Below, piece after piece: positions 28,501-52,449 of a DNA stretch of 64,000 bases; the first letter of the stretch is position 1; every line of letters starts with the position of its first letter. The notes below the pieces were generated by a model. The model worked only from the letters and a program-made list of their open reading frames with translations, had not been told where the DNA came from and searched no databases. Source of the DNA: Malacoraja senta (taxonomy: Eukaryota); contig CM075988.1 of NCBI GenBank assembly GCA_038087875.1, positions 22,260,001 to 22,324,000 of the forward strand. The letters are read 5' to 3'. A program made the position numbers and the translations under genes.

Positions 28501-31500
28501 TTCCCACCTGGCCCCACGCAGTAAGGCAGCGACGGTGGTGAGTGGAGCCGACAGCCCTGTGCCTGAGGTGGTGTCTGATGCCGACATCGAGTCTGTGGAA
28601 GGTGAAGAGCCGGCAGGAGACGGAGGAGTGGAGAATTTTCAGGTAGGCCCTGAACTGCCCAGGTCTGTATGTGAGAGTGGTTTATGCAGCTCGCTGTCCT
28701 TGGTTAACAAAGGGCGGTCACGGTGGCCCAGCGGTAGAGTTGCTGCCTTACAGCGAATGCAGCGCCGGAGACCCGGGTTCGATCCCGACTCCCGGTGCTG
28801 TCTGTACGGAGTTTGAACTGGAATTGTAAATTGCCCCGAGTGTGTAGGATAGGATAGACTCAGCGGGCCGAAGGGCCTGTTTTGTGTGGTACATCTAAAG
28901 AGGGTTTTCTCCGAGATCTTCGGTTTCCTCCCACACTCCAAAGACGCACAGGTATGTAGGTAGATTGGCTTGGTAAATGTAAAAACTGTCCCTAGTGTGT
29001 TTAGGATAGTGTTAATATGCGGGGATCGCTAGCCGGCGTGGACCCGGTGGGCCGAGGGGCCTGTTTCTGCGCTGTATCTCCAAACTAAAGTAAACTAAAA
29101 TCCCAGAATCAAAATAACGACAAATGCATTATTTCGAGAGGAACTAGAATATAAAAACACAATGTAATGTCGAGGCTTTAAAAAGCATTAGCCAGACCGC
29201 ATTTGGAGTATTGTGGGCAGTTTTGGACCTCGTATCTGAGGAAGTATGTGCTGGCGTTGGAGAGGGTCCAGAGCAGGTTTACGAGAATGATCCCAGGAAT
29301 GATTGGGTTAACGCATAATGAGCGTTTGACCGCACTGGGCCTGTACTCGCTGGAGTTTAGAAGAATGAGGGGGGGGGACCTCATTAAAACGTATCGAATA
29401 GTGATAGGCCCAGATAGAGTGGAGATGGAGAGGATATTTCCATTAGTGAGAGAGTCTAGGGCCAGAGGCCATAGCCGAAGAATAAAAGGGCGTACCTTTC
29501 GAAAGGAGACAGGTGTTGAAGGTTATGGGGAGAAGGCAGGAGAATGGGGTTCGGAGGGAGAGATAGATCAACCATGATTGAATGGAGGAGTAGACTTGAT
29601 GGGCCGAATGGCCTAATTCTACTCCTATCCCTTATGACCTCTGAGATGAGGAGGAGCTTCTTCAGTCGGAAGGTGCTGAATCTTAAAGTCATATCTTTAG
29701 TCCTTGACGTTTCCACTCTGGAAATAATGCTCCGACTGTCTACCCTATCTATAATCTTCCATCTTAAATTACAAGTCATTTTATTTTCAGCAGCTAAAGC
29801 GCTACGTGAGGTTATATGCAACTCTTTGGCTTCACTAATGCTTGTGTTTCCCAATATCTCTTCCTTTGGGTTAACGTCAGCTTTGCTTTGCTCGATTCTC
29901 ATGAAAGTTGAGGGGGTGGAACTGAGCTCAGGTCGAGGGAAAGAGGGCAGCATTTTTTGTTGTCGAAAATTAAAAGCTTAAGAACACACATTGTTCGCAG
30001 CAGAAGGTGTTTGGTTTTCAGAGAATTTTGCTGCTCGGAGAAGCAGCATTGAACAGGTGTCAGGGGTTATGGGGAGAAGGCAGGAGAAGGGGGTTAGGAG
30101 TGAGAGGTAGATCAGCCATGATTGAATGGCAGAGTAGACTTGATGAGTCCAATTCTGCTCCTAGAACTTGAACTTATAACTATTCCTGTTTCTTTTTTTG
30201 CAGACAGTTTGGGAGGACCTGATGGATGACTTAGCCAAAAAAAAAGGCAAGAACTTTGGTGAGTGAGAGCAGAGATATCTGTTTCCTTCACTGGACCTGT
30301 TTTTATCCAATTTCTTATCATGTTAGCTGAATTTATCACCTAGAAATGCAAGAATACCTGAAAAAAAATAGCTGATAGAAACCAGGCCCAGCTGGTAGAG
30401 TTGCTGCATCACAGCGCCAAAGATCCATGTTGACCCATGACCACGGGTCCTGTCTGTATGGAGTTTGCACGTTCTCCCTGTGACCACGTGGGTTTTCTCC
30501 GGGTGCTCTGGTTTCCTCCCACATTCCAAAGACGTGCGGGATTGTCGGTTAATTGGCCTCAGTAAATGTCCCGTAGTGTGGACGAGAAAGTGGGATTACA
30601 CGTGTGAACGGGTGATTGATGGTTGGCTTGGGCCATGCCGCCTGTTTCCATGATGGATCTCTAAACCTAACGATAGAATACTTTCTAATGTCAGAAAGAG
30701 GATTGCTCCTCTGGAAACATTGGAGCGATCCTCCTCTCTCCAATGAAACTGAATAATATAAATTATAATAAGAACCCAATTATACATAGCACAATCCGAA
30801 TTTGGAAACAAATAAAACAAAATTTAAAATTAAGAAATTTATCACTTTTATTACCCATAGTTAATAACTCTTCGTTTAATCCCTCTATTATAGATAAAGC
30901 TTTTACACATTGGGATAGACTAGGAATTAAAACGTTCGGTGACTTGTATGAAACTGGAAAATTACTTTCATTTCAACAATTACAAATAAAATATAAACTC
31001 GGAAATAATCAATTTTAAATATTTTCAAATATGCGACTATTTGAAAAAATATACAAAAGATCATTATAATAACCCAGCAGATGTATAGGATGAGGCAATG
31101 CAGATAAAAGCTGAATCAGCAAACTTAATATCATATTTGTATAATATTATCTTAAATGTAGAAATACCATCTACGGAGGGTATCGGAAGAGACTGGGAAC
31201 AAGAGTTAGCTATTAAAATTTCAAAGGAAAGTTGGAATGAACACTTATTAAACGTGCATAAATGTTCGATTAATGCAAGACACACTTTAATACAATTTAA
31301 AATTTTACATAGATTATATTATTCCAAAACTAAAATCCATAAAATTTTCCCAAATGTATCATCCATTTGTGATAAATGTCAATCCCAAGAAGCTACTATA
31401 GCGCACTCATTTGTTTTCTGTACAAAAATTCAAAAATTTTGGAATGAAATTTTCGAAATCTTTACAAAATTATTTAAAATAAAACTGATACCCAAAGCAG

Positions 31501-32902
31501 AATGGATTATCTTCGGAATAACGGAAGATGGTCCAGAACTAAATGTGTTTCAAAAGAAACTAATAGACTATTGGTTAATAACTGGAAAAAAGCTAATCCT
31601 AAAATTTTGGAAGAAGGCTCCAATACCAACTATAAACATGTGGATTTCAAATATGTTCGAAACATTACACCTAGAAGAAATAAGACTCCTCCTAGCAGGT
31701 AAACCAGATCACTTCCACCTGACGTGGTCTGCATTTATAGAATTATTACAAATATAGGGTGCAAAGGTACCTTAAAAAAAATTGAGGTCAGGTAATGGGG
31801 GATGATAGTTGAAGAGTTGGTATGTCCCATTTGCGTAATGCTCATAAAAAATATTTGTTTCTCTCTTTTTCCTTTTTCTCTTTCTCCTTCTTTTCTAGGG
31901 TCTATTTCTTAACTCTTTTTCTTTTGTTTTTAATTTTGTTCTTATAGGGTCTTCGTCCTTTTTTGTTGTCACATTTTCTACACTCTCATTTTTTCCTTCA
32001 CTTTCTTCTTTCTTTCAATCTTATCCTTTCCTTTCACTAGTGTAAAAAACAAATGGAGTACATTAATTGTAAGAAGACATAAGTGACGAGTACTAATGTA
32101 TGTGGTTGTAATGTAATGTACTTCTAATAAATTAAAAAATTAAAAAAAAGAATACTTTCTATAGCACTTCTGAAACAGGCCCTTCGGCCCACCGAGTCCG
32201 TGCCGACCAGCGATCACCCCGTATTGACAGTGCAAAATGCTTAGATGGGGTGGAATTTGTTGCGTCCATCCATGAGTGTTGCATAGATAGGGTGGATATG
32301 TCCAAGATTAGAGGGCATAGCGTTAAGGTGAGAGGGTCAAAGTTAAAAGATGTGCAGGATGGGTATTTTTACACAGAAAGTGATGGGTGCCTGGAACATG
32401 CTGCCCACGGTGCTGGTGGAGGCAGGTATAATTTAAGAGGCTTTTAGATGGGCTTGCGGATTTGCAGGGAATGGAGGGATCTTGTTCATGTGCAGGCAGG
32501 GGAGATGAATTTAACTTGTCACTATGTTCGGCACAGACAACGTGGGCCGAAGGGCCTGTTCATGTGCTGCACTCTTCTGCGTTCTATTCCAGGCATTTTC
32601 CGCTCAATGCTACAACTATTGTTGTGTACAGTCGCATAAACATTGGTTTGTTTGTTCCAGACGAACTCCGGGAAGAATCTGAAACGAGTATTGAAAGCCA
32701 GAAGTCGTCTCCCAGAACTGAAAAGACCAACTCGGTAAACTCCTGCTCCATATTCTGTTGAGGCCCGGCCCTTTCCAAGATTCCAGAGTGTTTTATCGTC
32801 CTGTGCCCCAGATAGAACAATGAAATACTTTCTTGCAGCAGCACAACTGAATATGTAAACATAGGAATCTGTAAACATTATAATAAAGGAGAGAAAAAGG
32901 TT

Positions 32903-32989
<87 letters not shown>

Positions 32990-35900
32990 CATAAATGTGA
33001 TAGACACAAAAAGCTTTAGTAACTCAGCGGGTCAAACAGCATCTCTGGAGAAAAGGAATAGTTGACGTTTCGGGTCGAGACTCTTCTTTGGTCTGAAAAA
33101 GGGTCTCGATCCGAAACATCACCCATTCCTTTTCTCCGGAGATGCTATCTAATATAGAGAACGGTGTGTGTGTATATATAGATATAGATATAGATAAATA
33201 GATATAAATAAATAAATAAATAAATAAATAGATAAATGGATAAATATATATCTTTATCTATCTATCTATCTATATATATATGTATATATATATATATTTA
33301 AAATTGTGTGTGTGTTTCTGCCTGTCTTGTGGGTGCCAGCCTTCCTTTAATTCGTTGCAACGCCAACACCACACGCAGAAACGCCGAGATTTTTTCCATT
33401 TCGGTAGAGATTTCACTTTTCATTCCAAGTATCCACTCCTGGTTAAATTTTGTCGTGTTTATGTAGACATTTTTAATAACATCCTTCTTCCCCCCCCCCC
33501 CACTCCATTTTGTCTCCGCCTGCTGGCCAGCCACCATAGCGGCTGCTGCCGAAAGGCTCTGCTCCAAAAACGACGCCATTTTTTTCTTTCGCTAGCGATT
33601 TTCTCCCTGGGGTCTGAAGCAGGTTTGGGGTCCAGACCCAACGGGTCTGCACTTGGTCTAGTATATATATAAAACCGGTGCCCCCAAGTCGATGTAGTTC
33701 AGAGCTTACTGGAAGTAGTTAATAGCTTGATGGCTGGAGGGAAGAAGTTGTTCCTGAACCTGGACGTTATAGTTTTTGGGCTCCTGTACCTATTTCCCAA
33801 TGGCAGTGATGAAACGAGTGTGTGGGTCTCTGATGATGTTGGCTGCCTTTTTGAGGCAGCAACTCATGCAGATCCCTTCGATGGTGGGGAGGTCAGAACC
33901 CGTGATGGACCAGGAGACGGTGTTCACCACTTTTTGCAGGCTTCTTCGCTCCTGGGCATTCCCCTTTCGCCTTCTCCAGTGTCAGAGTGGGGAGGGTTTG
34001 CGGGGATGTGTGTCATGCCAACATGTTGTCCTGTTAGTGGGAAACGGAAAGTTACGGAGTCAGCCGGGCACTAGATGGCGTGACTGCGTGAGAGAGCAAC
34101 GTGATGAGCTTCCAAGGCGAGTGATCCACAGGATCAATGATGGAAAGACTTCTGCTTCCAATCATCAGATTCCATCATGGCAACGAAGGAATGTAAATTA
34201 TTAATACCTCCAGTTTCAGGGACTGTTTCTTCCCAGCTTTTATCAGGCAACTGAACCATCCTATCCTCAACTAGAGAACGGTCCTGACCTTCCATCTAAC
34301 ACATTGGAGACCCTCGGACTATCTTTAATCAGACTTTACTGGACTTTGTCTTGCACTAAACATTATTCCCTTTATCCTGGATCTGTACACTGTGGATGGC
34401 TCGATTGTAGTCTAGCTGGTGGTGGAACGGTCTTTCTGCTGACCGGTTAGCACGCAACAAAAAGCTTTCCACTGTACCTCGGTACACGTGACAATAAACT
34501 AAATCGAATCGAATCTATGGGGTGGCGCAGCGGTAGAGTTGCTGCCTCACAGCGCCAGAGACCCGGGTTTGATCCTGACTACCGGTGCTGTCTGTACGGA
34601 GTTTGTACGTTCTCCCTGTGACCGCATGGGCTTTCTTCAGGTGCTCCAGTTTCCTCCCACGCTCCAAAGACGTACATGTTTGTAGGTTAATTGTCTTTGG
34701 TAAAAAATTTAAATTGCCCCCAGTGCAGGATAGTGTACGGGGATCGCTGGTTTGTGGCGGAGGCGTCTGTTTCCACGTTGTATCTCTAAACTAAACTATA
34801 CCGAAGATCAGCAGCTATGTTGCAATCTCATTTTAAGTTCAATAATAACTGCTCAACATTGTCTTTCTATTTGATTTTTTTTTGTAGTTGGAAGAACTGC
34901 CTCCAGATCCAAATGAACAGTAAGTAAAAGCGGAGAAAATTCAACGTGTTCATGAATTGCAACTGACTTCTGGCCAGTTTTCACTGTACACTGCGGGTGG
35001 CCGATCGCTGGTCGGCATGGGCCGAGGGGCCTGTATTGTGCTGTATCTCTGAAGTCTAAATTAAATCGCTTCATGCCAAATACTTTTTTTTAAATTATTT
35101 TTATTCGAGGCCATTGTACAAGGATAAAACATTCGGCATGTAAAATTATACAATTATCGTACAGCTTCAATTTTAACCTTTTAGCCTGAAAGTGGGAGAA
35201 AAGAAGAGAGGAAGAACAAGAGAAGGGAAAAAGTGAGAAGTGAAAAGATAGCTCGAAAAAGCATATAGAAAAGACCCCTAAACTACCAAAGTTGTGTGGC
35301 CAAAAAGTGAATAAAGATATAAGAGTCTGTTGGACACCGCACATCTTGAGGAAATGCGATTCCTCCGAATAGATAAATTTGACCAATTCACAACGAGTTG
35401 GTCTCCATTTGTCGTCTTTTTGGAATCATATGGTGCAACACAATTGTAAAAGCTAACTCGTGACTGGACGAGGGATGGTCAAGATTATAAATAAGTTCTC
35501 CTTACTTCTTTTTTCTTTTTCTTCCCTTTTCTTCTTTTCTTCTCTTTTTCCTATTTTCTATTCTTTAACTTTCTTCTTTCACTCTCTATTTTTCTTTTCC
35601 ACACACTATATATCTCACATTTTTCTATATTTCATTATCTAACTTCTTTTTCTTTATCTTCTTTATTATAAAAAAAAATTTAAATAAGAAGCTGTACATA
35701 AAAGGTATTATGAAAATATGATTGTATACAATTGTACTTCTAATAAAATAAAAAGAAAAAAAGAAAAAGAAAAGACCCCTAAACTAACAAAGTTGTGTGG
35801 CCAAAAAGTGAATAAAGATATAAGAGGAAAAAAAAGAGAGAGAAAAAAAAAAAAGTGGATGATATACCTGCCCCTCGTCCACCCCCCCCCTGCCCACCTC

Positions 35901-38615
35901 ACCCAACCCAGAATCGGATTTAAATCTAAATGTGTGTTGCGCCATTCTATCCTTGTAAGAATTCGGTGAAGGGTGTCCATGTCTTGAAAAATGGATCTGT
36001 TTTTTCTGCCAAGACTTCATGCCAATCACTAACCCTCACTCATCTTTATACTTCAGATGTGAAGAGGAAAACCGTTCCACAAAGAAATCTCGAACAGAAC
36101 CAAAAAGTGTAGGTAAGTGGATTCTCAACCTCTGTCTGTTTATTTCTGATGTTCCTGCATTTTTCCGCATCTCCAACCAATAAACTGAAAATCAAGGCAC
36201 ATTTTATATTTCTGATAGTATTTGCTTATGAGTTTCTAATTGATTGAGGAATTTAAAGAAACATCATGGAAACAGGCCCTTTGGCCCACTGAGTCCACTC
36301 CAACCATCGATCACCGGTTCACACTAGTTCTATGTTATCTCACGTTTGCACCCATTCCCTACATACTTGGGGCAGTTTTACAGGCCATTAAACCTTCAAA
36401 CTTTGGGATGTGCAGGGTGTCACACTGCACATCCCACGCTGTCACAGGGAGAACATGCGAACTCCACACAGACAGCTCGCAAGGTCTGGATCGAATTCAG
36501 GTCTCGAGAGCTATGAGGTACCTGCTGTGCCACTCTGCCACCCATGAATTCAATGGTTTGATCAACCCTCTACAATCTCTGTCGAACTAACAGCTGTCGT
36601 AGTTTGGGTGGCACGGTGGCGCAGCGGTAGAGTTTCTATCTTACAGCGCCAGAGACCCCGGTTCGAACCTGACTACGGGTGCTGTCAGTACCGGGTTTGT
36701 ACGGGTTTGTACAGTGACCGCGTGGGTTTTCCCCGGGTGCTCCGGTTTCCTCCCACACTCCAAAGACGTACGTGTTTGTAGGTTAATTGGCTTCGGTACA
36801 AATTGTAAATTGTCCCTAGCGTGGGTAGGGTAGTGCTAGTGTACGAGGTGATCGCTGGTCAGCCCAGATGGGGTGGGCCGAAGGGCCTGTTTCCGTGCTG
36901 TATCTCTAAACTAAAGAATCCCAACCCAAAACATCATCTGCCCATTGACACCCAGAGATGCTGCCTGACCTGCTGAGTTCCACCAGCATTTTTTTTTTTT
37001 TTAATCGCTCGGTTTGGTTTTATTAATTTAATGCATCCTCGGTCAGCGGAGAAAACTGACATTATTTTAAGCTCTGTGACTCCAAGTGTCAAAACTAGCA
37101 CTATCAAAATAGAGTGAAGTGTCAGTCTGTCTGTGTGAGCAGATAGAACACGTGCAGGAAGGAACTGCAGATGCTGGTTTAAACCAAAGATAGACACAAA
37201 AGTCCTTAGATTGTCAAACGCTATTTCCCTTTTATCGTTTTTTGACTCTGCACAATCAGTACCTTTTGCATAATCTATGGAGCGAAGGATTAGGTGACGT
37301 TTTGGGTCGAGACGACCCGAAACGTCACCTATTCCTTCGCTCCATAGATGCTGCCACACCCGCTGAGTTGCTCCAGCATTTTTGTCTACCTTCGATTTTT
37401 CCAGCATCTGCAGTTCCTTCTTAAACCTTCCTCATAATCAGTACCTTTAGCTTCCAGTACTTTAACTAGCTGATCTTTAGTTCACTATTCTCTCTTCCTC
37501 TGAATAATTGGTTTATTTTTGCCACCTTACAATCTCCGAAATTAAAATTAATATTGGTATCTTTGTAGATACTCCTGGTGTTGGGTTTTGGTCCCAATGG
37601 ATATTCTTTCTTTTCATTTATTCATTAGTTCATGGGGATGTGGACACCATTGGCAAGACAGATACCTTGTTAACCACAAAAAGTTGGGGTAACTCAGCGG
37701 GACAGGCAGCATCTCTGGAGAGAAGGAACGTTTGGGTCGAGACCCTTCTTCAGCCTGTAGACGGGTCAAGACCCGAAACATCACCCATTCCTTCTCTCCA
37801 GAGATGTTTGCCTGTCCCGCTGAGTTACTCCAGCACTTTGTGTCTATCCTCCGATAGAACCCATTCAGTCTCGTTGTTTTCCACACCTGGAGGCAGAGGC
37901 TGGAGTTAAAATCTGACAACTCCGCAAGAGGCCATTTACCCACCGCTACTAGTTCCAGCCACTGTCCACTCCCCTGTCCTCCCCCTGTAATTCTGTTCTT
38001 GTGAGTTTCCACCCAATTCACTTCTGAACGTTACCAGCCGAATAGAAATACACTTTTCATCGTCGTCCTTCTAGTTCTGATGATTGGCATCTGAAACCCA
38101 CTTTTACGCTCCCTCTACTGTGGGAATAGTTTCTCTGTATCCATCAGAGACCTTCAGAAATCTAAACACAAAATTTGTTTCAAAATTAGTTCCAATACCC
38201 ATTCTGAAGGAAGGCCATTGAAAAAAGGAGATATCTAGACAAAATTAAACCAAACTAAAATTGGTGAATTGAGGTTGGAATTGTTCTTGAAAAATCCAGT
38301 TTGTGTGTGTGTGCGCATAAGTGTGTCTGCGTGTATGTGTTTGTGTGCATGTGTGTCTCTGAGTCTGTGTGTGTGTGTGTCTCTGTGTTTGTGTGTGTCT
38401 GTCTCTGTGCTTGTGTCTCGGTCTCAGTGTGTGTGTGTGCATGTGTCGCTGTGCGTCTGCCTGTGTGAGACTTTGTTTCTATGAGTGTATATGTGAGAGT
38501 GCGTGCATGTGTATGCCTCTATCTGTGTGTGTGTGTGTCTCAGTCCATGTGTATGTGTGTGTCTCTGTGCCTGCACCCCTGTGCTGCGTGTGTGTTTCTC
38601 TACCTGTATCCCTGA

Positions 38616-38649
<34 letters not shown>

Positions 38650-41600
38650 TGTGCCTGTATCCCTGTGCTGTGTGTGTGTCTCTGCCTGTATCCCTGTGCT
38701 GTGTCACTGTGCCTGTATTCCTGTGTGTGCTGTGTCTCTATGCCTGTATCCCTGTGCTGTGTGTGTGTGTGTCTCTATGCCTGTATCCCTGTGCTGTGTG
38801 TGTGTGTGTGTCTCTGTGCCTGTAACCCTGTGCTGTGTCTCTGTGCCTGTATCCCTGTGCTATGTGTGTGTCTCTCTGCCTGTAACCCTGTGCTGTGTGT
38901 GTGTGTGTGTGTGTGTGTCTCTGTGCCTGTATCCCTGTGCTGTGTGTGTGTGTCTCTGTGCCTGTATCCCTGTGCTGTGTCTCTGTGCCTGTATCCCTGT
39001 GCTATGTGTGTGTCTCTCTGCCTGTAACCCTGTGCTGTGTGTGTGTGTGTCTCTGTGCCTGTATCCCTGTGCTGTGTCTCTGTGCCTGTATCCCTGTGCT
39101 GTGTGTGTGTGTGTGTGTGCTGTGTCTCTGTGCCTGTATCCCTGTGCTGTGTGTGTGTGTGTCTCTGTGCCTGTATCCCTGTGCTGTGTCTCTGTGCCTG
39201 TGTCCCTGTGCTGTGTCTCTGTGCCTGTATCCCTGTGCTGTGTGCTGTGTGTGTGTGTGTGTGTCTCTGTGCCTGTAACCCTGTGCTGTGTGTGTGTGTG
39301 TCTCTGTGCCTGTATCCCTGTGCTGTGTCTCTGTGCCTGTATCCCTGTGCTCGCGCCTGTGTGTGAAAGCCAGGCATCAAACACTGTTGTCCCTGACGTT
39401 TGCCTGTGTTGCCTGCCTCCAGATAAGATTGTCTTTGACCCGTCCAAGTGCCGCCTGTGGCGGGCGGTCCACTTGGAGCAGGAGCTGATCACGCACGGAG
39501 TGGAGGACATCTCCTTCTTGCTGTACCGCCTGAAGCTGAAGAGGTTTCTGTCGGAGGGGGACCAGGAGGAGGTGGAGAAGCAGAGCACTGGGCCGTCCAA
39601 GCTCGACGCACTCCTGCAAATTGTGTTGAAAAAGAACTCCAACCTGGAGATCCGCAAGTTCACGTCCGTGCTGGTTGCCATCGACGGGCTTAAGCCAGAG
39701 CTTTCCAAGTGGGTCCAGAACCTGGAGGAGATGGGTACGTTAGATCTCTGCCTGCTGACTTGTATGCAATAAAAAATAATTTGGTCTTAGAATTATAGAA
39801 CATAGAACACAGAACAGTGCGGGCGGTCACAGTGGCGCAGCGGTAGAGTTGCTGCCTTACAGCGAATGCAGCGCCAGAGACCCGGGTTCGATCCTGACTA
39901 CGGGCGCTGTCTGTACGGAGTTTGTACGTTCTCCCCGTGACCTGCGTGGGTTTTCTCCGAGATCTTCGGTTTCCTCCCACGCTCCAAAGACGTACAGGTT
40001 TATAGGTTAATTAGCTTGGTAAATGTAAAATTTGTCCCTCGTGGGTGTAGGATAGTGTTAATGTGAGGGGATCGCTGGTCGGCGCGGACCAGGTGGGCCG
40101 AAGGGCCTGTTTCTGCTCTGTATCTTTAAATTGAACTAAACTAAAGGGACAAAAAGCTGGAGTAACAGCGGGTCATAGGGTCAAAAAGTGATAGGAGCAG
40201 GATTAGGCCATTCGGCCCATCGAGTCTACTCCACCATTCAATCATGGCCTGATCTATCTCCCCCTCCAAACCCCATTGGACGACAGATGGCGCAATGGGC
40301 TAAGTGTTCGGCTGGCAACCGGAAGGTAGCCGGTTCGAATCCCGCTTGGAGTGCATACTGTCGTTGTGTCCTTGGGCAAGACACTTCACCCACCTTTGCC
40401 TGCGTGTGAATGTTGATATGTTGATATCAACATATGGATATGGATAATTCTCTGTAAAGCACTTTGGTTTCAAGTGATTTGATTGAAAAGTGCTATATAA
40501 ATACAAATATTATTATAATATTATTATTATTCTCCTGCCTTCTCCCCATAACCTCTGATGGATGAAGTATGGGGCCACCCGTCCTTTTTCTCCAGAGATG
40601 CTGCCTGATCAGCTGAGCCACTCCAGCACTTTGCATCTACCCTTGAGTATAAACCATTGTCTGCAGTTCTTTGTTTCTACTTCTCAGTTGAAGTTACAAA
40701 TCCTTTGCTGGTGTCCCCGTGTCCACTTTTTTTAGAAGGTCCACTGCCAGCACGACATGAACTCCATGCAAGGGGGAATACCACGGCTCTACAGTAATGA
40801 ACGAGACCAAAGTATAAATGGGGAAACAGATGTGGCCTGTTGACTTCAATATCGGCCGCATAGTTTTTCAGGTCCCGGGTGACATTTTGCAGGCCAATTA
40901 TGTTTGCATCATCTTCTGGGATGTCTTCGTGTTTGGGGTTGTGGCGGGTTAGGAACTGGGCCAGGAAATTGATGGGGTGAAAGTAAAGCCCCTGTCCCAC
41001 TTAGGAGACCTAAACAGCAACCTCTGGTGACCTTGCCCGCCACCCAAAAAAAAAAAATCAAGGTCGAGGTGACCTGCAACCTCCTACCACCTCCCAGGCA
41101 TATGTTGAAAACCTTCCTCCACTATGAAGAAAACCGGCTTCGACTAGACCTGCGACTAAAAAATAATAGATTTTTTTAAACGGCAACCTATTTTTAATCG
41201 AGGCCGGTTTTAATCACGATGAAAAAAATAGCAGCAACCTAGATGAAGCCTCGACCACGCGGAAACCACTTTCGACCATTAGGGAGAGTGACCAAAACCT
41301 CCGGTGACCTCATGGAAACCTTGGGTGGCGGGCAAGGTCACAAGAGGTTGCTGTTTAGGTCTCCTAAGTGGGACAGGGGCTTAACCCAGCGTAACCCACC
41401 CAGGAGACCCTGTTCCTTTTCTCCAGAGACGCTGCTTGTCCCGCTGAGTTACTCCAGCTTTTTGTGTCTACCTTCGGTTTAAACCAGCATCTGCAGTTCA
41501 AGTCCAGTTTAGTCAAGTCTATTTGTCACATTCGCATACGAGATGTGCAGTGAAATGAAAAGTGCAGTGAAAAAAGTTCCTTCCTACACATAGAACAGCA

Positions 41601-44600
41601 CAGCACAGGCCCTTTGGCTCACATTGTCTATGCCAAACATGACACCAAGTTAAACTAATCTCGTCTGCCTGCATGCATCCTTGTGCCTATCCAAAAGCCT
41701 CTTGCATGCCATTATTGTATCTGCTCTCAACACCACCCCTCGCTGCACGTTCCAGGCACCCACCTGTGTGTGTGAAATGCAATTCACCTGCACATCTCCT
41801 TTAAATTTGTTCCTCTGACCTGTAAAGTACAGTCTTAACGGCCTTAGTGGTGCTGGGTCAGGGTTCAGGGGTCAGCCTGGCCTGGCGATGCTCTTGACCT
41901 CCCCTCTGGTTGGTTGCTGCAACATTATTCTATTAGCATAGAGGGTGTTAGAGGGTCAGCATGGATCTAGTGGGCTGAAGGGCCTGTTTCCGTGCTGCAT
42001 CTCTCTCTACCACTATGCAAACTATAGTTTAGTTTTATTGTCACATGTACTGTGGTGAAAAGGTTTTGTTGCATGCTAACCCCAGTCAGCGGAAAGATTA
42101 CACTGAAGGGTCTCGAGCCGAAACATCACTTATGCCTTCTCTCCAGAGATGCGGCCTTTTGTGTCTATCTCCAGCGGAAAGACTATATACATGATTACAA
42201 TCCAGCCATCCACAGCGTACAGACACATGATAAAGGGAATAACGTTTAGCGTAAGGTATAGTCCGATGAAAGATAGTCTGAGGATCTCCAATAAATGCCA
42301 GGTAGACAAAAATACTGGGGAAACTCAGCGGGTGAGGCAGCATCTATGGAGCGAAGGAATAGGTGACCTTTCGGGTCAGGCTGATGTGGGGTGGGGTGGG
42401 GGGGGGGGGGGCGGGAAGATGAAAGGAAGAGGCGGAGACAGTGGGCTGAGGGAGAGCTGGGAATGGGAGGGGAAGGAGGGAGAAAGCAGGGACTACCTGA
42501 AATTGGAGAAGTGAATGTTCATACCGAAGGTAGACAAAAGTGCTGGAGAAACTCAGCGGGTGCGGCAGCATCTATGGAGCGAAGGAAATAGGCAACGTTT
42601 CGGGCCGAAACCCTTCTTCAGACTGATGTTCATACCGCTGGGGTGTAAACTACCCAAGCGAAATATGAGGTGCTGCTCCTCCAATTTGCGGTGGGACTTC
42701 CGTCTACTCCAATGAATGCTAATACTGTGCAATGTTTTTTTTTCTTGCTGTGAAGGGAACAGCTGTGCGGATAGTTTCTTGTACCTGTACCTGGAGGTGT
42801 TGGCTGAGCCACTGAGTGGCCTCCCATTGAGGGACCTTATTTACAGCCTGCAGACCCGGAACATTCTGACGGACGTGGAGAATGACCTCCTGATGAAGAC
42901 CTCCCCCCTGCACCGAGGGCAGCGGCTGCTGGAGGTCATCGTCTACATGAAGTCGGCCGCCGAGAAGGCAGAGTTTGTCTTCCTGCTGGAGGAAGAGCGG
43001 AGCTCGTTTCCCACGCTGAGGAGATGCCTGGATGAGCTCCAGCAGGAGTTTGAGAAGCTGCGTAAGTGGGGGCTGCCGCAGGGTAACGTCGATCAGCCTC
43101 GCGGTTGAGCTGCCGCCCCGCAGCGCCACAGACCCGGGTTCGATCCCTACCGCGGGTGCTGTCTGTACGGAGTTTGCACGTTCTCCCCGTGACCCGCGTG
43201 GGTTTTCTCCTGGCGCTCCAGTTCCCCTCCCCCCCCCCCCCCCCCCCCACTCCAAAGACGTCCAGGTTTGTAGGTTAATCTTCTTCTTGCATATGGCGTT
43301 CACAGCCTAAAGATGAAAGGAAGAGGCGGAGTCGGGGCTGTGGGAGAGCTGGGGAGGGGAGGGGAAGGAGGGAGAAAGTAGGGACTACCTGAAATTGTAG
43401 ATCAATGGTGGACATCCAGGCCAGGGCAGCATCAGTTACTGGATGGATGGCTGGGAGATTGCAACCTTCACGTGGCTGGGAGATTGCAACCTTCACGTGA
43501 TCCACCCTGTTTCGACTAATGCAATCAACCCAACGTCCACAAACAAATAGATGTAGGTTAATTGGTTTGGTGTTAAATGTACAAATCGTCCCTAGTGTGT
43601 GTGTGTAGGGTAGTGTTAGTGTGCGGGGATCGCTGGTTGATGCGGAGTTGGTGGGCCGAAGGGCCTGTTTCCGCGCTGTATCTCTGAACTAAAAAACTAA
43701 ACTACACATGTTGTAGACTAGAGCATGAACGGGCAGCTGGGGGAGCTCGGCAGGTCGGGCAGCATCTGTGGAGGCAGTGCTGTGGTCAATGCTTTGGGCT
43801 GAGACCCTGCATCAGGACCTCTCCCTGCACTGTTCTGTGCCCTGCATCAATAACTGGAGGCAGTACATGATCTATTACTTTAATTGTGCAAAGTGTAAGG
43901 ATGAACATAGGAAGATATTAATAGAGCCACTATTATCATCGCCCAACCTTACTTCCTGTCTGAAGAAGGGTCCTGACCCGAAACGTCACCTATTCTTTTT
44001 CTCCAGAGATGCCGCCCGACCCGCTGAGATGTGGAGTCATACAACGTGGAATCAGGCCCACACCGACCAACATGCCCCAACTACACGAGTAATCATAGAA
44101 ACATAGAAAATAGGTGCAGGAGGAGGCCATTCGGCCCTTCGAGCCAGCACCGCCATTCATTGTGATCATGGCTGATCGTCCCCTATCAATAACCCGTGCC
44201 TGCCTTCTCCCTATATCCCTTGACTCCACTAGCCCCTAGAGCTCTATCTAACTCTCTCTTAAATCCATCCAGTGATTTGGCCTCCACTGCCCTCTGTGGC
44301 AGGGAATTCCATAAATTCACAACTCTCTGGGTGAAAAAGTTTTTCTCACCTCAGTCTTAAATGACCTCCCCTTTATTCTAAGAGTGTGGCCCCTGGTTCT
44401 GGACTCGCCCAACATTGGGAACATTTTTCCTGCATCTAGCTTGTCCAGTCCTTTTATAATTTTATTTGTTTCTATAAGATTCCCCCTCATCCTTCTAAAC
44501 TCCAGTGAATACAAGCCTAGTCTTTTCAATAGCCTAGTCTAATCGATGCCGAAACTCGTTGATGCTGAATCTACACTAGTCCTACCTGTTTGCATTTGGC

Positions 44601-47600
44601 CGATGTCCCTCTAAACTTATCCTATCCATGTACACGTCTAAATGTTTTTTAAATGTTGTTATAGAACCTGAACTACCTCCTCTGGCAGCTCATTCCATAC
44701 ACCCATCACCCTTTGTGTGAAATATAATGTTTCCCCCTTGGGGTTCTATTAAATCTTCCCCCCCCCCCCCCTCACCTTAAACCCACGACTTCTGGTTCTC
44801 GATTCCCCTACTCTGGGCAAAAGACTGTGCATTTAACCCGATATATTCCTCTCAAGACACACACATCCTCTCATGACTATTCCTCCATCACACACACACA
44901 CACACACACACACAACCACACCAACCTTCCTTCCATTGACTCCATTTATGATCTCACGCTACCTCGGCAAGGCCAGCAGCACAATCAAGGGCCAGTCTCA
45001 CCCCGGTCACTCCCTCTTCTCCCCTCTCCCGTCAGGCCAGAGGAATAGAAGTGTGAAAATGCACACCTCCAGATTCATGGACAGTTTCTCCTCAGCTGTT
45101 ACCAGGCAACTGAACCATCCTATCACAACTGGAGAGTACTCTGAGCTACTATCTACTTCATTGGAGACCCTCAGACTATCTTTGATCGGACTCTCTCTTG
45201 GGAAAACGGTTTTTATGTTAATCCTATATCCTGTATCTGTACACTGTTGGTGGCTCGATTGTAATCATGTATTGTCTTTCCCGCTGACTGGTTAGCACGC
45301 AACAAATGCTTTTCACTGTACCTCGGTACACAGGACAATAAACTAAACTCAACTCCACATCTCCTTTCCTTGGATACTCCATATCCATGAGCTTATCTGA
45401 AAGCCTTTTAAACACTAGTATCACTGCCTCTGGACACTATCAACCTGAAACGTCACCCGTTCCTTCTCTCCCGAGATGATGCCTGACCCGCTCAGTTACT
45501 CCAGCATTTTGTGTCTATCTTCGGTGTGAACTGGCATCTGCAGTTCCTTCCTACAATTTTTTTAATTTAATTTTTTTAATTTTTTATTAGAAGCAATTGT
45601 ACAGAGATAAAACATTCGGTATCTAAAAATAATACAATTATTGTACAGCTTCATTTTTAGCCTTATAACCTAAACTATGAAAATGAAAAAAGAAAAGAAA
45701 ACGATAAACAAGAAAGAAAAAAAATAGAAAGTGAAAAGATAGATTGAAGAAGAACAAAAGAAAGTCCCCTAAACTGCCACAGAAGTGTGGCAGAGAGATA
45801 TAGAAATAAAAAAATTAAAAAAGAAAGGTGGAGATATACCTGCCCCTCGTTCCCCCCCCCACCCCGCCCACCTCACCCAACCCAGCATCGGATTCAAATT
45901 TAAATTTGTGTTTCACCATACTATTGTTGTAAGACATGTAAAGGGTGTCCATATCTTAAGAAATGATCTGTTTTTTCCGCCAAGACAAGCCTAATGCTTT
46001 CCAAATGTAGTGTCTCGAACATGTTTGTGATCCACATCTTCACTGTAGGGACCGTTGTCTGTTTCCAAAATTTAAGTATTAATTTTTCGCCGTTATCAGG
46101 CCATAGTTGAGGAAACGTCTTTGAAATATCGTTAGCTCAGAACAGGCCTCTGACATACCTAGTGTGATCGGTTTTATGTCGGGATCCAATTTAGTTTAGT
46201 TTCCTACATATGATGACTATCTTATTCACGGCGGCTGTCCTTTCACCCGCAGGTTACGGATATATCCCGCGTTTCAAGAGGTACGTCCCGCTGAAGAGGC
46301 TGCGCAAACGCGAGGACCTGCCGGCGGAAGAGCAGAACTCCTACTGCAACTTCTTCCGCCTGATGTACCTCATCATCCTGGAGGGGGACGCGGATGGCTC
46401 AGAAGGTGTTTGCCGAGCGGGTGGCCCCGGCCGACCTGCGGGCGGAGATCGGCAAGCTGAAGAAGGCGGAGCTGCACCGGAGCTTCCGCGAGTTCCAGAC
46501 CACCTTCGCCTCGCACTCGGACTGGGGGCTGCTGTACCCGCCCAGGGCCGCCCGCCTGGACTTCCAGAAGTACGACGTCACCCTCCTGGTCTTCCTGATG
46601 ACGCACGTGCGGGCCTTCCCGCAACCCCGCCGCGGCTGGTGGGCCGAGCCCCCCCCCGACGACCACTCCAAGTCGGCCAGCCTGCTCCGCCTGCTCTACC
46701 TGCGCCGCCGGCTGGTGCTCCGGGACGGTTACCTCGGCGTGCCCGAGGAGGAGTTCCTGGACATCTGGCACAAGGCAAGCAGTGCCTCTGCCACCTCGGC
46801 AAGGACCCGGAGGAGATCGAGGACATCATGTTCACGCCCGGCTACCTGCTGTGGAGGGACCACAAGCAGATCGCAGAACTCATGGGGAAACAATGTGTGG
46901 AGTTGACCGGACAGTACATGATGGCCATGAAAGCCCATCTACGTAAGGACCCATCCCAATCCCGTGGGCCATCCTGCTGCAGATGTGCAGGGCAGGTTTC
47001 TCTCACACAAGAGGGTGGTGGCGGTGGTAGTGGAGGCAGATACAATAGTGGCAGTTGTACAGGGCCCTAGTGAGACCACACCTGGAGTATTGTGTGCAGT
47101 TTTGGTCCCCTAATTTGAGGAAGGACATTCTTGCCATTGAGGGAGCGCAGCGTAGGTTTACAAGGTTAATTCCCGGGATGGCGGGACTGTCATATGCTGA
47201 GAGAATGAAGCAGCTGGGCTTGTATACTCTGGAATTTAGAAGGATGAGAGGGTATCTCATTGAAACATATAAGATTGTTAAGGGTTTGGACACGCTAGAG
47301 GCAGGAAACACGTTCCCGATGTTGGGGGAGTCCAGAACCAGGGACCACAGTTTAAGAATAAGGAGTAAGCCATTTAGAACGGAGACGAGGAAACACTTTT
47401 TCTCACAGAGAGTGGTGAGTCTGTGGAATTCTCTGCCTCAGAGGGCGGTGGAGGCCGGTTCTCTGGATGCTTTCAAGAGAGAGCTAGATAGGGCTCTTAA
47501 AAATAGCGGAGTCAGGGGATATGGGGAGAAGGCAGGAACGGGGTACTGATTGGGGATGATCAGCCATGATCACATTGAATGGCGGTGCTGGCTCGAAGGG

Positions 47601-50600
47601 CCGAATGGCCTACTCCTGCACCTATTGTCTATTGTTTAAGGGTGGTGGGTGCCTGGAAGGTGCTGCCAGGGGCGGTGGTGGTGGTAGTGGAGGCAGGTAC
47701 AATAGTGGTGTTTGGGGCAAGAGTCTTTCAGACTCGGGGCATGTGGATGTGGATCACCTGCAGGCGGTGGAGATAGATGGTGTCAAGTAGGAATTGGTGC
47801 AGCAAAGATTTACCCCGATGTTGCAAGGACTCCAGGGACTGAGCTATATTGGGAGAGGTTGAGCAGCTGCCGACTCTGTTTACCAAAATGCTCAAAATAA
47901 GTTCATAACTCATAGGATCAGAGGTCATTTGGCCCATTGAGTCTACTCTGCCATTCAATCATGGCTGATCAATCTTTCCCTCTCGCCCCCCATTCTCCTG
48001 CCTTCTCCCTATAACCAAAGAACTGGAGTAACTCAGCAGGTCAGGCGACATCTCTGGAGAACACAAGATGGGAGATGTTCTGTGTTGAGACCCTTCTTCG
48101 GACCGTCTTCGAGACCATGTTCTCCCAGAGATGCTGCCTGACCTGCTGAGTTAGTCCTTTTGGGAAGTGTGGGAGGTTGGCAGAGTTGGGAATCATCCTC
48201 TGGCATGGTCTGAAAGACACAAAATGNNNNNNNNNNNNNNNNNNNNNNNNNNNNNNNNNNNNNNNNNNNNNNNNNNNNNNNNNNNNNNNNNNNNNNNNNN
48301 NNNNNNNNNNNNNNNNNNNNNNNNNNNNNNNNNNNNNNNNNNNNNNNNNNNNNNNNNNNNNNNNNNNNNNNNNNNNNNNNNNNNNNNNNNNNNNNNNNNN
48401 NNNNNNNNNNNNNNNNNNNNNNNNNNCAGACTCTAGGATTCGGGGGCTCTCCCCAGGCCCTCATTCTGAAAGGTCTCGAACCCGAAACGTCACCCATTCC
48501 TTTCCTGCATAGATGCTGCCTGTCCTGTCCGAGTTACTCCAGCACTTTGTGTCAATCTTTCGGTAAACCAGCACCTGCAGTTCCTTCCTACTCATCGCTG
48601 TGCTGTAGATTGGTTTCAGCCACTGAGCACTCTTTGGTGGTCATGACTGCCACCCAGTGGTGGATTGAAGATCAACAGTGCTGAATGGCTTGGACATGAT
48701 CAATCCCTTGATGGGCCCTCTTCAGCCTGTTGTTGAATATGGCTGGTAGGGTCGAACATAGGGGCCTAGTTGGGGAATACATCAACTTTATTCCCCGGAA
48801 CGCTGGAGGCTGAGGGGTGATCCTACAGAGGTGTATAAAAATCATGAGAGGAATAGATCGGGTGAATGCTTTTACCCGAAGGTAGACAAAAATGCTGGAG
48901 AAACTCAGCGGGTGCGGCAGCATCCATGGAGCGAAGGAAATAGGCAACGTTTCAAGCCAAAACCCTTCTCCAAAACCCGCTTTTACCCGGAGTAGGGGAA
49001 TCAAGAACCAGAGGACATAGGTTTAAGGGAAGAGGGGAAAGATTTAATGGGAACCTGAGGGACAACTTTTTCCACACACAAGGTGTAAGGAACGAGCTGC
49101 CAGAAGAGGTAGTTGAGGCAGGGACTATCACAGCGTTTAAAAGGCATTTGGACAGGTACATGGATAGGAACATATCGGTGCGGTCTCGGTGGGCCGAAGG
49201 GCCTGTTTCGGCACTGTATCTCTCAACTAAACTAAAACTAAGATGGAGCATCACGGATGAGAGGGGCCGAAGGGCCTGTTTCTGTGACGTTTGCCTGTGA
49301 TACATGCATCGATCTGAGGTGTTATAGTCATAGAGTGGTACAGTGTGGAAACAGGCCCTTCGGCCCAACTTGCCCACACCGGTCAACATGACCCAGCTAC
49401 ACCTCCATATCCCTCCAAACCTGTCCTATCCATGTACCTGTCTAACTGCTTCATAAACATTGGGATAGCCCCAGCCTCAACTACCTCCTCTGGCAGCTGG
49501 TTCCATACACCCACCACCCTCTGTGTTTATGCTCCCTTCTGCAGCAACAAGCAGCGGAGACACTGAAACTGAAGCAGGAGGCGGAGAATGAGCGGAAAGT
49601 GCAGCAAGGCGACAAGCAGCTTCTTCAGAACCAGATCAAAAGCCTGCAGGAGACCCTGCTGGGCACGGAGGAGCTGCTGAAAACGTGAGCTGTGGCTTTA
49701 GCCCGCGTCCATTGACATTTAGACATACATGATACAGCGCGGAAACAGGCCCTTCGGCCCATCGGGTCCGAGCCGACCAGCGGGCCCCGCACATTAACAC
49801 TATACACACACACGCACTAGGGGACAATTTTTACATTTACCAAGCCAATTAACCTACAAACCTGCACGTCTTTGGAGTCTGGGAGGAAACCGAAGATCTC
49901 GGAGAAAACCCACGTAGGTCATGGGGAGAACGTGCAAACTCCGTACAGACAGCACCCGTGGTCACGATCGAACCGGTTCTCCGGCGCTGCATTCGCTGTA
50001 AAGCAGCAACTCTACCGCTGCGCCACCGTGACCGCCCGGAGGTCAAACGTGGCCTTTCTTTATGAGTAGAAACTTCTTTAGTCAGAGGGTGGTGAATCTG
50101 TGGAACTCTTTGCCACAGACGGCTGTGGAGGCCAAGTCAGTGGATATTTTTAAGGCAGAGATAAATAGATTCTTGATTAGTACGGGTGTCAGGGGTTACG
50201 GGGAGAAGGCAGGAGAATGGGGTGAGGAGGGAGAGATAGATCAGTCATGATTGAATGGCGGGGTAGACTTGATGGGCCGAATGGCCTAATTTGACTCCTG
50301 CCACTTATGACATGTAGATCCCGCTCACCGTCAAGAGGCTGATCTCTGCTTCCTAATCCCATTTTCCTGCCTTCCCCCCCATAACCCTTGACACCCGTTC
50401 TAATCAAGAATTTGTCTGTCTCTGCCTTAAAAACATCCACTGACTTGGCCTCAACAGCAATGAGTTCCACAGAATAACTACCCTCTAACTAAAGAAGTTC
50501 CTCCTCACCTCCTTTGTAATAGCGCGCCCTTTAATTCTGAGGCTGTGCCCTCTGGTCCTCAATCTCCCACCAGGGAAAACATCCTGTCCACATCCACTCT

Positions 50601-51360
50601 ATCGATGTAAGTTTCAATGAGGCCCCCCCCTCCACCATTTAAACTTGGCCTCCACAGCCGCCTGTGGCAATGAGTTCCACGGTTGGTTGGCGTAATGATC
50701 CCGGTGTTTGGGTGACGGAGCTCGGCGGGGGGGGGGGGGGGGGGCCGGGCCGGGTAGAGTTGGACAGACTGTAACTGCGATCACTCTGTGCAGGTCGGAG
50801 AAGCAGATCAAGGCTCAAGTGCAAGAACTGGAGGAGCTGAAGAGTCGCACTCAGCAGGACCAGTGAGTAGCAGATGCAAGGTGGCCTCAATGTAACATAG
50901 AGTCACCTAGCCTGGTAACGGGCCCTTCAGCCCAACTTGCCCACACCGACCAACATGCCCCATCTGCACCAGTCCCACCTACCTGCGTTTGGCCCATATC
51001 CCTCTAAACCTGTCCTATCCATGTACCTGTTTAAACGTTGTGATAGTCCCTGCCTCAACTACCTCCTCTGGCAGCTCGTTCCACACACCCACCCACCGCC
51101 CTCTGTGTGAGGGTGTGGACATGCAGCGTTACAAAGTGGGGATCCTTCTTATGACTGACTGGAGCCGTTTGCTCCCCTGTTTCACAGGGAACAGTGGGCG
51201 CAGGAGAAGACCCGGCTGGAGCGGCAGTCGGCAAAGAGCAAGGACGAGTTCATCGAGGCCATGCGGCGGGCCATGTCCGCAGAGGTACCGCGCTAATTCA
51301 GCCACCGCGGGCACCGCACGGCTCGCAGTGTATATTAAACACACACACACACACACACAG

Positions 51361-51391
<31 letters not shown>

Positions 51392-51392
51392 G

Positions 51393-51476
<84 letters not shown>

Positions 51477-51503
51477 ACACACACACACACACAGACACAC
51501 ACA

Positions 51504-51550
<47 letters not shown>

Positions 51551-51605
51551 AGACACACACAGACACACACAGACACACACAGACACACACACACACACAC
51601 AGACA

Positions 51606-51652
<47 letters not shown>

Positions 51653-52417
51653 ACAGACACACACACAGACACAGAGCTGGAGACCCTCCATGGGTCAGGC
51701 AACAGCGGAAGGGAGGGGGGGGGAAAGAGTGAGGGAGAGAGAGTGGGGGAGAGGGGAGGGGAGGGAGAAAGGGAGGGGGGAGAGAGTGGGAAGGAGAGTG
51801 AGGTAGAGAGTGGGATGGGAAGAGGGGAGGGAGTGATCGGGAGGGAGGGAGAGAGGGGGGAGATCAACCTCAGCCTTAAAAATACCCATTGACCCAACTA
51901 TAAATATGTGGATTTCAAATATGTTTGAAACATTACACCTTGAAGAGATAAGACTCCTCCTAGCAGGTAAACCAGATCACTTCCACCTGACGTGGTCTGC
52001 ATTTATAGAATTATTACAAACATAGGGTGCAAAAGTACTTTAAAAAAAAATAAAAAAATTGAGGTCGTGTAAGGGGGATGATAGTTGAAGAGTTGGTATG
52101 TCCTATTTACGTGATGCTCAAAAAAAAAACATTTGTTTCTCTTTTTTTCTCTTTCTCTTTTCTTTTCTTAGGGCCTATTTCTTAACTCTCTTTCTTTTTG
52201 TTTTTAATTTCGCTCTCATAGGGTCCTCGTCCTTTTTTGTTGTTACATTTTCTACACTTTTCTACACTTGCACTTTATCCTTCACTTTCTTCCCTCTTTC
52301 AATCTTTTCTTTCTCTAGTGTAAAAAAATAAATAAAGGGAGTACATTAATTGTAAGAAGATATAAATGACGAGTATTAATGTATGTGGTTGTAATGTAAT
52401 GTACTTCTAATAAATAA

Positions 52418-52449
<32 letters not shown>

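What the first reader, a model, noticed from the sequence alone, without database searches (positions are those of the whole stretch)
39423..43061. Two tandem CARD-like domains, each on one symmetric phase 1-1 exon
Seen: 312-nt and 306-nt exons share the pattern L..LL..L....(F/I)L(S/T)..(D/E)......S....LL.(I/V)......F...L, typical of CARD helices 2-5. Symmetric single-exon encoding fits exon duplication or shuffling. The ends ([34 protein letters not shown]) resemble a mid-region of TTC3 as I recall it (EPKLAAWIQKLNSFG; WLLEEHRDKFPALHSALDE). Inference: TTC3-family proteins may hide an unrecognised tandem death fold, clearer in this lineage.
Basis: partly seen in the sequence, partly recalled or inferred. 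Interest (0 to 1): 0.7.

Follow-up and report, generated by a model that had tools for sequence, protein, structure and literature searches.

The report
Tandem CARDs in skate ubiquitin ligase
Two neighbouring exons encode back-to-back domains predicted to fold as CARDs (cell-death and immune-signalling docking modules) inside a TTC3/DZIP3-family ubiquitin ligase of cartilaginous fishes; a tandem death fold was already listed computationally for human TTC3, but this separate gene keeps a cleaner copy, and mammalian DZIP3 appears to have lost it.

Summary
Observation confirmed. The exons are 39423-39734 (312 nt) and 42756-43061 (306 nt), both phase 1-1. Each AlphaFold model is a six-helix bundle (pLDDT 91 and 86). 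CARDs fill the top 30-odd structural matches of each (best Z 12.2), and exon A hits Pfam CARD (E 9e-5, just under the cut-off).

Two corrections. (1) The gene is not TTC3 but a separate paralog found only in cartilaginous fishes here (TPR-CARD-CARD-HEPN-coil-RING); this genome's TTC3 lies on another contig. (2) The fold is not unrecognised. A 2016 preprint proposed a CARD in TTC3, and Table S1 of a 2025 PNAS atlas lists two adjacent death-fold domains in human TTC3.

Not found in print: this paralog and its strongly conserved CARD pair; shark and ray DZIP3 keeping the pair while 3 of 3 mammalian DZIP3 models lack it; six named invertebrate TTC3s lacking it; and CARD1, CARD2 and HEPN each on a phase 1-1 exon. 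The likely role is a CARD-CARD docking module that recruits partners to the RING. Function is untested. New variant of a known kind; interest 0.38.

The parts
39423..39734 (+). Exon A, phase 1-1, CARD-fold domain 1 (kinked helix 1, helices 2-6)
   Evidence: Splice sites. Pfam CARD E 9e-5, 22.9 bits against a cut-off of 23.9. Model pLDDT 91. Best match NOD1 CARD, Z 12.2, rmsd 1.7, 79 aligned.
42756..43061 (+). Exon B, phase 1-1, CARD-fold domain 2; starts within about 3 residues of the last helix of domain 1
   Evidence: Splice sites. No Pfam hit. Model pLDDT 86, six helices. Best match CARD8 CARD (6k9f), Z 12.2, rmsd 2.2, 86 aligned.
46253..46942 (+). Exon with the DZIP3-type HEPN domain, also phase 1-1 (690 nt). 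It lacks the His of the nuclease motif. Two compensating one-base indels relative to orthologs lie near 46385 and 46775 in this assembly.
   Evidence: Pfam PF18738 E 2.5e-17..
19566..24860 (+). Exons of the TPR region (approximate; not all junctions resolved)
   Evidence: tblastn of P0004 residues 180-305. TPR hits below cut-off.
36057..36112 (+). Short exon before exon A; its donor is phase 1
49542..56017 (+). Exons of the coiled-coil and TTC3 helical domain (PF24525)
59788..61557 (+). Exons of the TTC3_9th helical domain (PF24905)
3464..63344 (+). Whole gene as far as the window holds it (P0004 residues 8-1407; about residues 865-1046 not placed). The RING-H2 of the orthologs was not matched in the window and presumably lies beyond its end.

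Best explanation
Exons A and B encode two directly abutting domains predicted to fold as CARDs, which likely act as a CARD-CARD docking module in the middle of a RING-H2 ubiquitin ligase (TPR-CARD-CARD-HEPN-coiled coil-RING), a TTC3/DZIP3 paralog found here only in cartilaginous fishes. Shown: the exons, their phases, the architecture, homology to the TTC3 middle region, and strong conservation. Predicted: the CARD fold. Inferred: the pair packs as one unit, since there is almost no linker. It binds another CARD-bearing protein or copies of itself, and so brings a substrate or partner ligase to the RING. The HEPN domain is likely a non-catalytic RNA-binding module. History (inferred): the pair entered a TTC3-like gene as symmetric exons before TTC3, DZIP3 and the two shark paralogs split. 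The phase 1-1 cassettes let mammalian DZIP3 lose the CARDs in frame, and let TTC3 and the HEPN-bearing paralogs differ by a whole HEPN exon.
For: Fold. Ranks 1-38 (exon A) and 1-32 (exon B) are CARD entries except one de novo design, and all other shown rows are death folds. Foldseek probability is 1.00 and TM about 0.7. Pfam CARD passes its cut-off in coelacanth and manta TTC3 on the homologous stretch (28.3, 29.0 and 27.0 bits). Conservation, skate against chimaera: D1 79%, D2 70%, HEPN 58%, helical domain 59%, RING 69%. Skate against Heptranchias: D1 92%, D2 95%. That is more than a fold alone usually needs (inference). All D1 group apart from all D2 across four paralogs (SH-aLRT 99). The TTC3 D2 exon of this genome has the same phase 1-1 boundaries. 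Annotated shark DZIP3-like isoforms lack just D2 (P0242) or just HEPN (P0243-P0249). That CARDs mediate mostly homotypic contacts is stated in 10.1101/087908.
Against: No partner, assay or solved structure exists for these domains in anything I read. Foldseek E-values stay above 0.001 (best 5.8e-3 and 6.7e-2), and the aligner warns that Z under about 13 in helical bundles can reflect a common arrangement. Exon B has no Pfam hit and no CARD among its 8 PDB sequence hits. In TTC3 and DZIP3 the pair evolves fast (31-64% identity between orthologs), and mammalian DZIP3 does without it. The TTC3 function I read about is ribosome quality control and neuronal development, not CARD signalling (abstract of PMC10041068). 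The trees are quick searches with long branches.
Confidence: 0.55

Rival explanations
1. The CARD pair is an intramolecular brake. It folds back on the coiled coil or RING and holds the ligase inactive, as recalled for the cIAP1 CARD.
For: It is an internal CARD in a RING ligase, and cIAP1 is among the structural matches (Z 9.7 and 9.0). High conservation also fits intramolecular contacts. The cIAP1 mechanism is recalled, not read here.
Against: About 780 residues separate the pair from the RING. Mammalian DZIP3 keeps its RING without the pair (P0028).
Confidence: 0.22
2. The pair has a CARD fold but no death-fold partner. It is a rigid spacer, or a surface for a non-CARD protein or RNA, in an RNA- or ribosome-linked ligase.
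For: The neighbouring domains are HEPN, or a winged helix in TTC3. TTC3 acts in ribosome quality control (abstract). TTC3 D2 is shortened and divergent. Pseudo-CARDs are described in 10.1101/087908.
Against: In this paralog both domains keep full length and are as conserved as the RING.
Confidence: 0.2
3. The domains are generic helical bundles that only resemble CARDs.
For: Sequence signals are weak, and Z is about 12 for small helical models.
Against: Two independent models each return death folds throughout the 50 rows shown, except one designed protein, over most of their length. Pfam CARD passes its cut-off in TTC3 homologs. An independent ECOD-based assignment exists for TTC3.
Confidence: 0.03

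Closest known systems
Vertebrate TTC3 (human P53804: death-fold domains 816-915 plus 1001-1010, and 916-1000, in PMC11874512 Table S1)
   Same: N-terminal TPR, homologous tandem death fold (about 29-30% identity to manta TTC3), helical domains and RING-H2; same phase 1-1 boundaries for the second exon in this genome's TTC3
   Different: This gene lacks PF19179 and the winged helix, has a HEPN, has a full-length second CARD, and forms a separate clade. The human sequence itself was not aligned; the match to the table's ranges is by length and position.
DZIP3 / hRUL138
   Same: HEPN, helical domains and RING; shark and ray DZIP3 also carry the CARD pair before HEPN
   Different: This gene keeps the N-terminal TPR block and lacks PF19179. 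Mammalian DZIP3 models lack the pair (gap from PF19179 to HEPN 82 aa, against about 300 aa in sharks).
Tandem-CARD proteins RIG-I, MDA5 and NOD2
   Same: Two abutting CARDs; structural matches Z 8.7-11.5 to MDA5 and mouse RIG-I chains
   Different: Those pairs are N-terminal on a helicase or NACHT sensor (recalled); here the pair is internal to an E3 ligase, with no sensor ATPase.
cIAP1/cIAP2 (BIR-CARD-RING)
   Same: Internal CARD in a RING E3
   Different: Single CARD next to the RING (recalled), BIR instead of TPR, no HEPN.
Invertebrate DZIP3-type HEPN fusions (PMC3710099 table)
   Same: HEPN listed as fused to TPR, RING, CARD and DEATH in various animals
   Different: Those HEPNs mostly keep the catalytic motif; the passages I read do not describe this gene or a tandem CARD.

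Membership tests
CARD (death-fold superfamily) | Six-helix death-fold bundle | tested here: met
   Predicted models: exon A H10-17, H19-25, H29-38, H44-51, H56-69, H73-85, H91-101; exon B six helices. Structural matches.
CARD (death-fold superfamily) | Closer to CARDs than to DD, DED or PYD | tested here: met
   Best CARD Z 12.2 for both. First non-CARD death fold at Z 7.3 (rank 39) and Z 8.0 (rank 33).
CARD (death-fold superfamily) | Pfam PF00619 at its gathering score | tested here: inconclusive
   Exon A 22.9 bits against 23.9; exon B no hit. TTC3 homologs pass at 27-29 bits.
CARD (death-fold superfamily) | Homotypic CARD-CARD binding or filament | not testable with these tools
   Needs experiment.
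CARD (death-fold superfamily) | 14-position hydrophobic core of 10.1101/087908 | not tested
   The positions are given in figures that are not held.
TTC3 orthologs | PF19179 and wHTH_TTC3 domains; position in the TTC3 clade | tested here: not met
   Neither domain in 5 of 5 orthologs scanned. Separate clade. This genome's TTC3 is on G000:C5084.
DZIP3 orthologs | PF19179 plus HEPN; groups with mammalian DZIP3 | tested here: not met
   HEPN present, PF19179 absent. Another shark gene (P0018 group) joins mammalian DZIP3 at SH-aLRT 97.
TTC3/DZIP3 family (broad) | PF24525, PF24905 and C-terminal RING-H2 | tested here: met
   All pass cut-off in the orthologs. PF24905 also hits in the window; the RING was not matched inside the window.
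Active HEPN RNase | R-x4-6-H motif (recalled) | tested here: not met
   His absent in this gene, in shark DZIP3 and in mammalian DZIP3; present in most invertebrate HEPN rows.

The most novel reading that the evidence does not exclude
Early jawed vertebrates built a family of 2CARD-HEPN-RING ubiquitin ligases by exon capture, and cartilaginous fishes keep at least three of them intact. This slow-evolving one is an RNA-binding E3 that nucleates or ubiquitinates CARD signalling complexes (RIG-I/MAVS, NOD or inflammasome type). Human TTC3 would retain a degenerate but working version, giving it an overlooked link to innate immune or cell-death signalling.
Probability: 0.15. Interest if true: 0.75.

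Novelty: new variant of a known kind. Interest (0 to 1): 0.38.

Why it matters
TTC3 is a studied neuronal E3 ligase, and its middle region has only a table entry and a one-paragraph prediction as a death fold. This paralog gives a clean, highly conserved version of the same module, suitable for structure and partner hunting. The comparative pattern (kept in TTC3 and shark DZIP3, absent from mammalian DZIP3 and invertebrate TTC3, on phase 1-1 exons) dates the module and gives natural with-and-without comparisons. The fold claim itself is not new.

Tried and rejected
Complex prediction of two copies of the tandem (P0004 430-636) gave 'no answer': score 0.00, alignment not used, controls not folded. 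It is no evidence either way.

A profile search with alignment A2 found nothing, but it examined only proteins of 2649-5000 aa, so it is uninformative.

The sequencing-run search listed 24 runs and no RNA holder on record. No reads were laid, so splicing and the two HEPN-exon indels in this assembly are unchecked against reads.

Own-genome searches did not find the DZIP3 ortholog, the P0022-type paralog or the TTC3 D1 exon. The three protein searches used a stricter first look, and the TTC3 contig ends 1.5 kb past its D2 exon, so these blanks do not show absence.

PDB sequence search: CARD8 was top for exon A but only at E 0.083; nothing relevant for exon B.

The careful tree did not finish, so the quick tree is reported; no one-clade test was run.

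A winged-helix or ARM identity was rejected: wHTH_TTC3 lies downstream of the homologous stretch in TTC3. Direct duplication of A into B was considered and is not shown.

Earlier-findings look-ups returned nothing.

Literature searches. None of the listings shown describes this paralog or CARDs in shark DZIP3. The library lacks most subscription papers, and some listings were cut (20 of 27, 12 of 69, 12 of 561).
Full report
Observation. They match consecutive stretches of a 1464-aa protein, P0004 (430-532 at 97%, 534-634 at 99%). P0004 lies on a 4,759-nt contig and so comes from spliced sequence (inferred). Its cluster holds Amblyraja and Leucoraja proteins, so the window is probably from a skate. 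The likeness between the exons is weak but above chance: 16/72 identities, E 0.15; 16 of 2000 shuffles reach the score; profile-profile P 0.0009 with all rows and 0.015 without TTC3 rows. The next exon, which carries HEPN (46253-46942, 690 nt), is also phase 1-1. Of the other 16 resolved introns, 3 are phase 1; 19 of 28 junction slots were resolved.

Fold. Exon A hits Pfam CARD at E 9e-5, 22.9 bits against a cut-off of 23.9; exon B has no hit. AlphaFold2, without templates and with alignments of 35 and 19 rows, gave pLDDT 91.1 and 85.5 and six-helix bundles, exon A with a split first helix. Against 48,161 PDB representatives, exon A matched NOD1 CARD (Z 12.2, rmsd 1.7, 79 aligned) and Apaf-1 (Z 12.0, rmsd 2.1, 90 aligned). 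Ranks 1-38 are CARD entries except one designed protein, and the first death domain is at Z 7.3. Exon B matched CARD8 (Z 12.2, rmsd 2.2, 86 aligned) and NOD1 (Z 11.7, rmsd 1.9, 82 aligned). Ranks 1-32 are CARDs except the same design, and the first death domain is at Z 8.0. Foldseek agrees (probability 1.00, TM about 0.7), but no E-value is below 0.001. The aligner warns that Z under about 13 can be a common arrangement for helical bundles. The uniform family and whole-domain cover are what carry the assignment.

The gene. tblastn lays P0004 residues 8-1407 along the window from 3464 to 63344. Residues about 865-1046 were not placed, and the RING was not matched inside the window. The architecture of the orthologs is TPR, CARD, CARD, HEPN, coil and PF24525, PF24905, RING-H2. 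All 14 close homologs are from cartilaginous fishes (13 by their own or cluster names, the last a Callorhinchus model). A phmmer search of 1.84 billion representatives found no closer non-chondrichthyan relative among the best 150 (only 30 proteins were looked up by name). In a quick tree of the C-terminal region (41 rows) this gene forms its own clade (SH-aLRT 100). It is apart from TTC3 (100) and from mammalian plus shark DZIP3 (97); a fourth paralog, Y, is also separate. One species, Hemitrygon akajei, has all four (P0007, P0194, P0244, P0022). This genome's TTC3 is on contig C5084.

Homology to TTC3. A profile of the pair found coelacanth TTC3 at E 4e-13 in the first round and converged on 50 proteins. 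Coelacanth and manta TTC3 pass the Pfam CARD cut-off on this stretch. The D2 exon of this genome's TTC3 starts and ends in phase 1 at the homologous positions. In a domain tree all D1 separate from all D2 (SH-aLRT 99), so the tandem predates the paralogs; TTC3 D2 is on the longest branch.

Distribution. Of 52 hits with both PF19179-like and winged-helix domains, 26 have both CARDs and 26 have neither. The 7 named among the first set are jawed vertebrates. The 6 named among the second are invertebrates (three molluscs, Lingula, Saccoglossus, Clavelina); 20 are unnamed or were not looked up. The interval between the two domains is 318-340 aa in 25 of 26 with CARDs and at most 212 aa in 22 of 26 without; four without have 242-305 aa. 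The profiles were trained on vertebrates, so a divergent invertebrate version is not excluded. Shark and ray DZIP3-like models carry D1 in 19 of 19 and D2 in 18 of 19 (skate DZIP3 was in the training set). One further short whale-shark model (P0059) has neither. Three of three mammalian DZIP3-type models (muntjac, tenrec, opossum; the last partial) have neither, and DZIP3 does not occur in the atlas supplement. One low-quality frog TTC3 model (P0075) also lacks the pair. No lamprey or hagfish sequence was identified.

Constraint. Between skate and chimaera D1 is 79% and D2 70% identical, against 58% for HEPN, 59% for the helical domain and 69% for the RING. Skate against Heptranchias gives 92% and 95%. 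In shark DZIP3 the pair is 49-64% identical and in TTC3 31-40%. The HEPN lacks the His seen in most invertebrate rows, so it is probably not a nuclease; the motif is recalled.

Mechanism. Most likely (0.55) the pair is a docking module. The two CARDs abut with about three residues between helices, and they bind a CARD partner or copies of themselves, delivering it to the RING. Rivals are an intramolecular brake as recalled for cIAP1 (0.22), a non-signalling scaffold in an RNA- or ribosome-linked ligase (0.20), and not a CARD (0.03). The exons, architecture, homology and conservation are shown; the fold is predicted; binding and role are inferred.

What is known. bioRxiv 10.1101/087908 (parts 1 and 3 of 3 and the TTC3 passage read; supplement not seen) proposes a possible CARD in TTC3. 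PMC11874512 (abstract, section 10, part 1 of 4 of the supplement and term searches) does not name TTC3 in its main text. Its Table S1 lists death-fold domains in human TTC3 (816-915 plus 1001-1010, confidence 0.992; 916-1000, 0.899), mouse (816-1005), rat (836-935) and zebrafish (776-970). I did not align the human sequence; the correspondence rests on length and position. PMC3710099 (two passages) lists DZIP3-type HEPN fused to TPR, RING, CARD and DEATH. PMC10041068 (abstract and outline) places TTC3 in ribosome quality control. The searches named under Tried and rejected showed no paper on this paralog.

Verdict. A real tandem CARD fold, already predicted for TTC3, here in a distinct and strongly conserved cartilaginous-fish paralog, with a clear exon-cassette history. 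New variant of a known kind; interest 0.38.

Noticed in passing
window 46253-46942: Two compensating one-base indels (near 46385 in a G run, near 46775 in an A run) shift about 130 codons of the HEPN exon relative to 5 of 5 orthologs checked; the shifted frame is also open. Probably assembly errors; not checked against reads.
   Followed up: partly
G000:C12:20.12-20.17 Mb (L004-L008): A further TTC3-like gene about 2.1 Mb from the window, with TPR, PF19179 and PF24905 exons at 36-49% identity to ray TTC3; no CARD, HEPN or winged-helix exon was detected in 70 kb. It and the window gene could be the duplicate of a linked TTC3/DZIP3 pair (inference).
   Followed up: partly
proteins P0022, P0030: A fourth shark and ray paralog begins with the CARD pair (residues 45-245), then HEPN (in P0022) and RING, without TPR: an N-terminal 2CARD-HEPN-RING protein. 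In Hemitrygon its contig has the same length as those of TTC3 and DZIP3.
   Followed up: partly
proteins P0242-P0249: Annotated shark and ray DZIP3-like isoforms lack exactly D2 or HEPN, as expected if these symmetric exons are skipped.
   Followed up: partly
window 38240-39350: About 1.1 kb of (GT)n-rich tandem repeat directly upstream of exon A; it gives the spurious 469-aa Cys/Val-rich ORF that runs into exon A.
   Followed up: no
window 48227-48426: A 200-base N gap, inside the region where the unplaced middle of the protein (about residues 865-1046) should lie.
   Followed up: no
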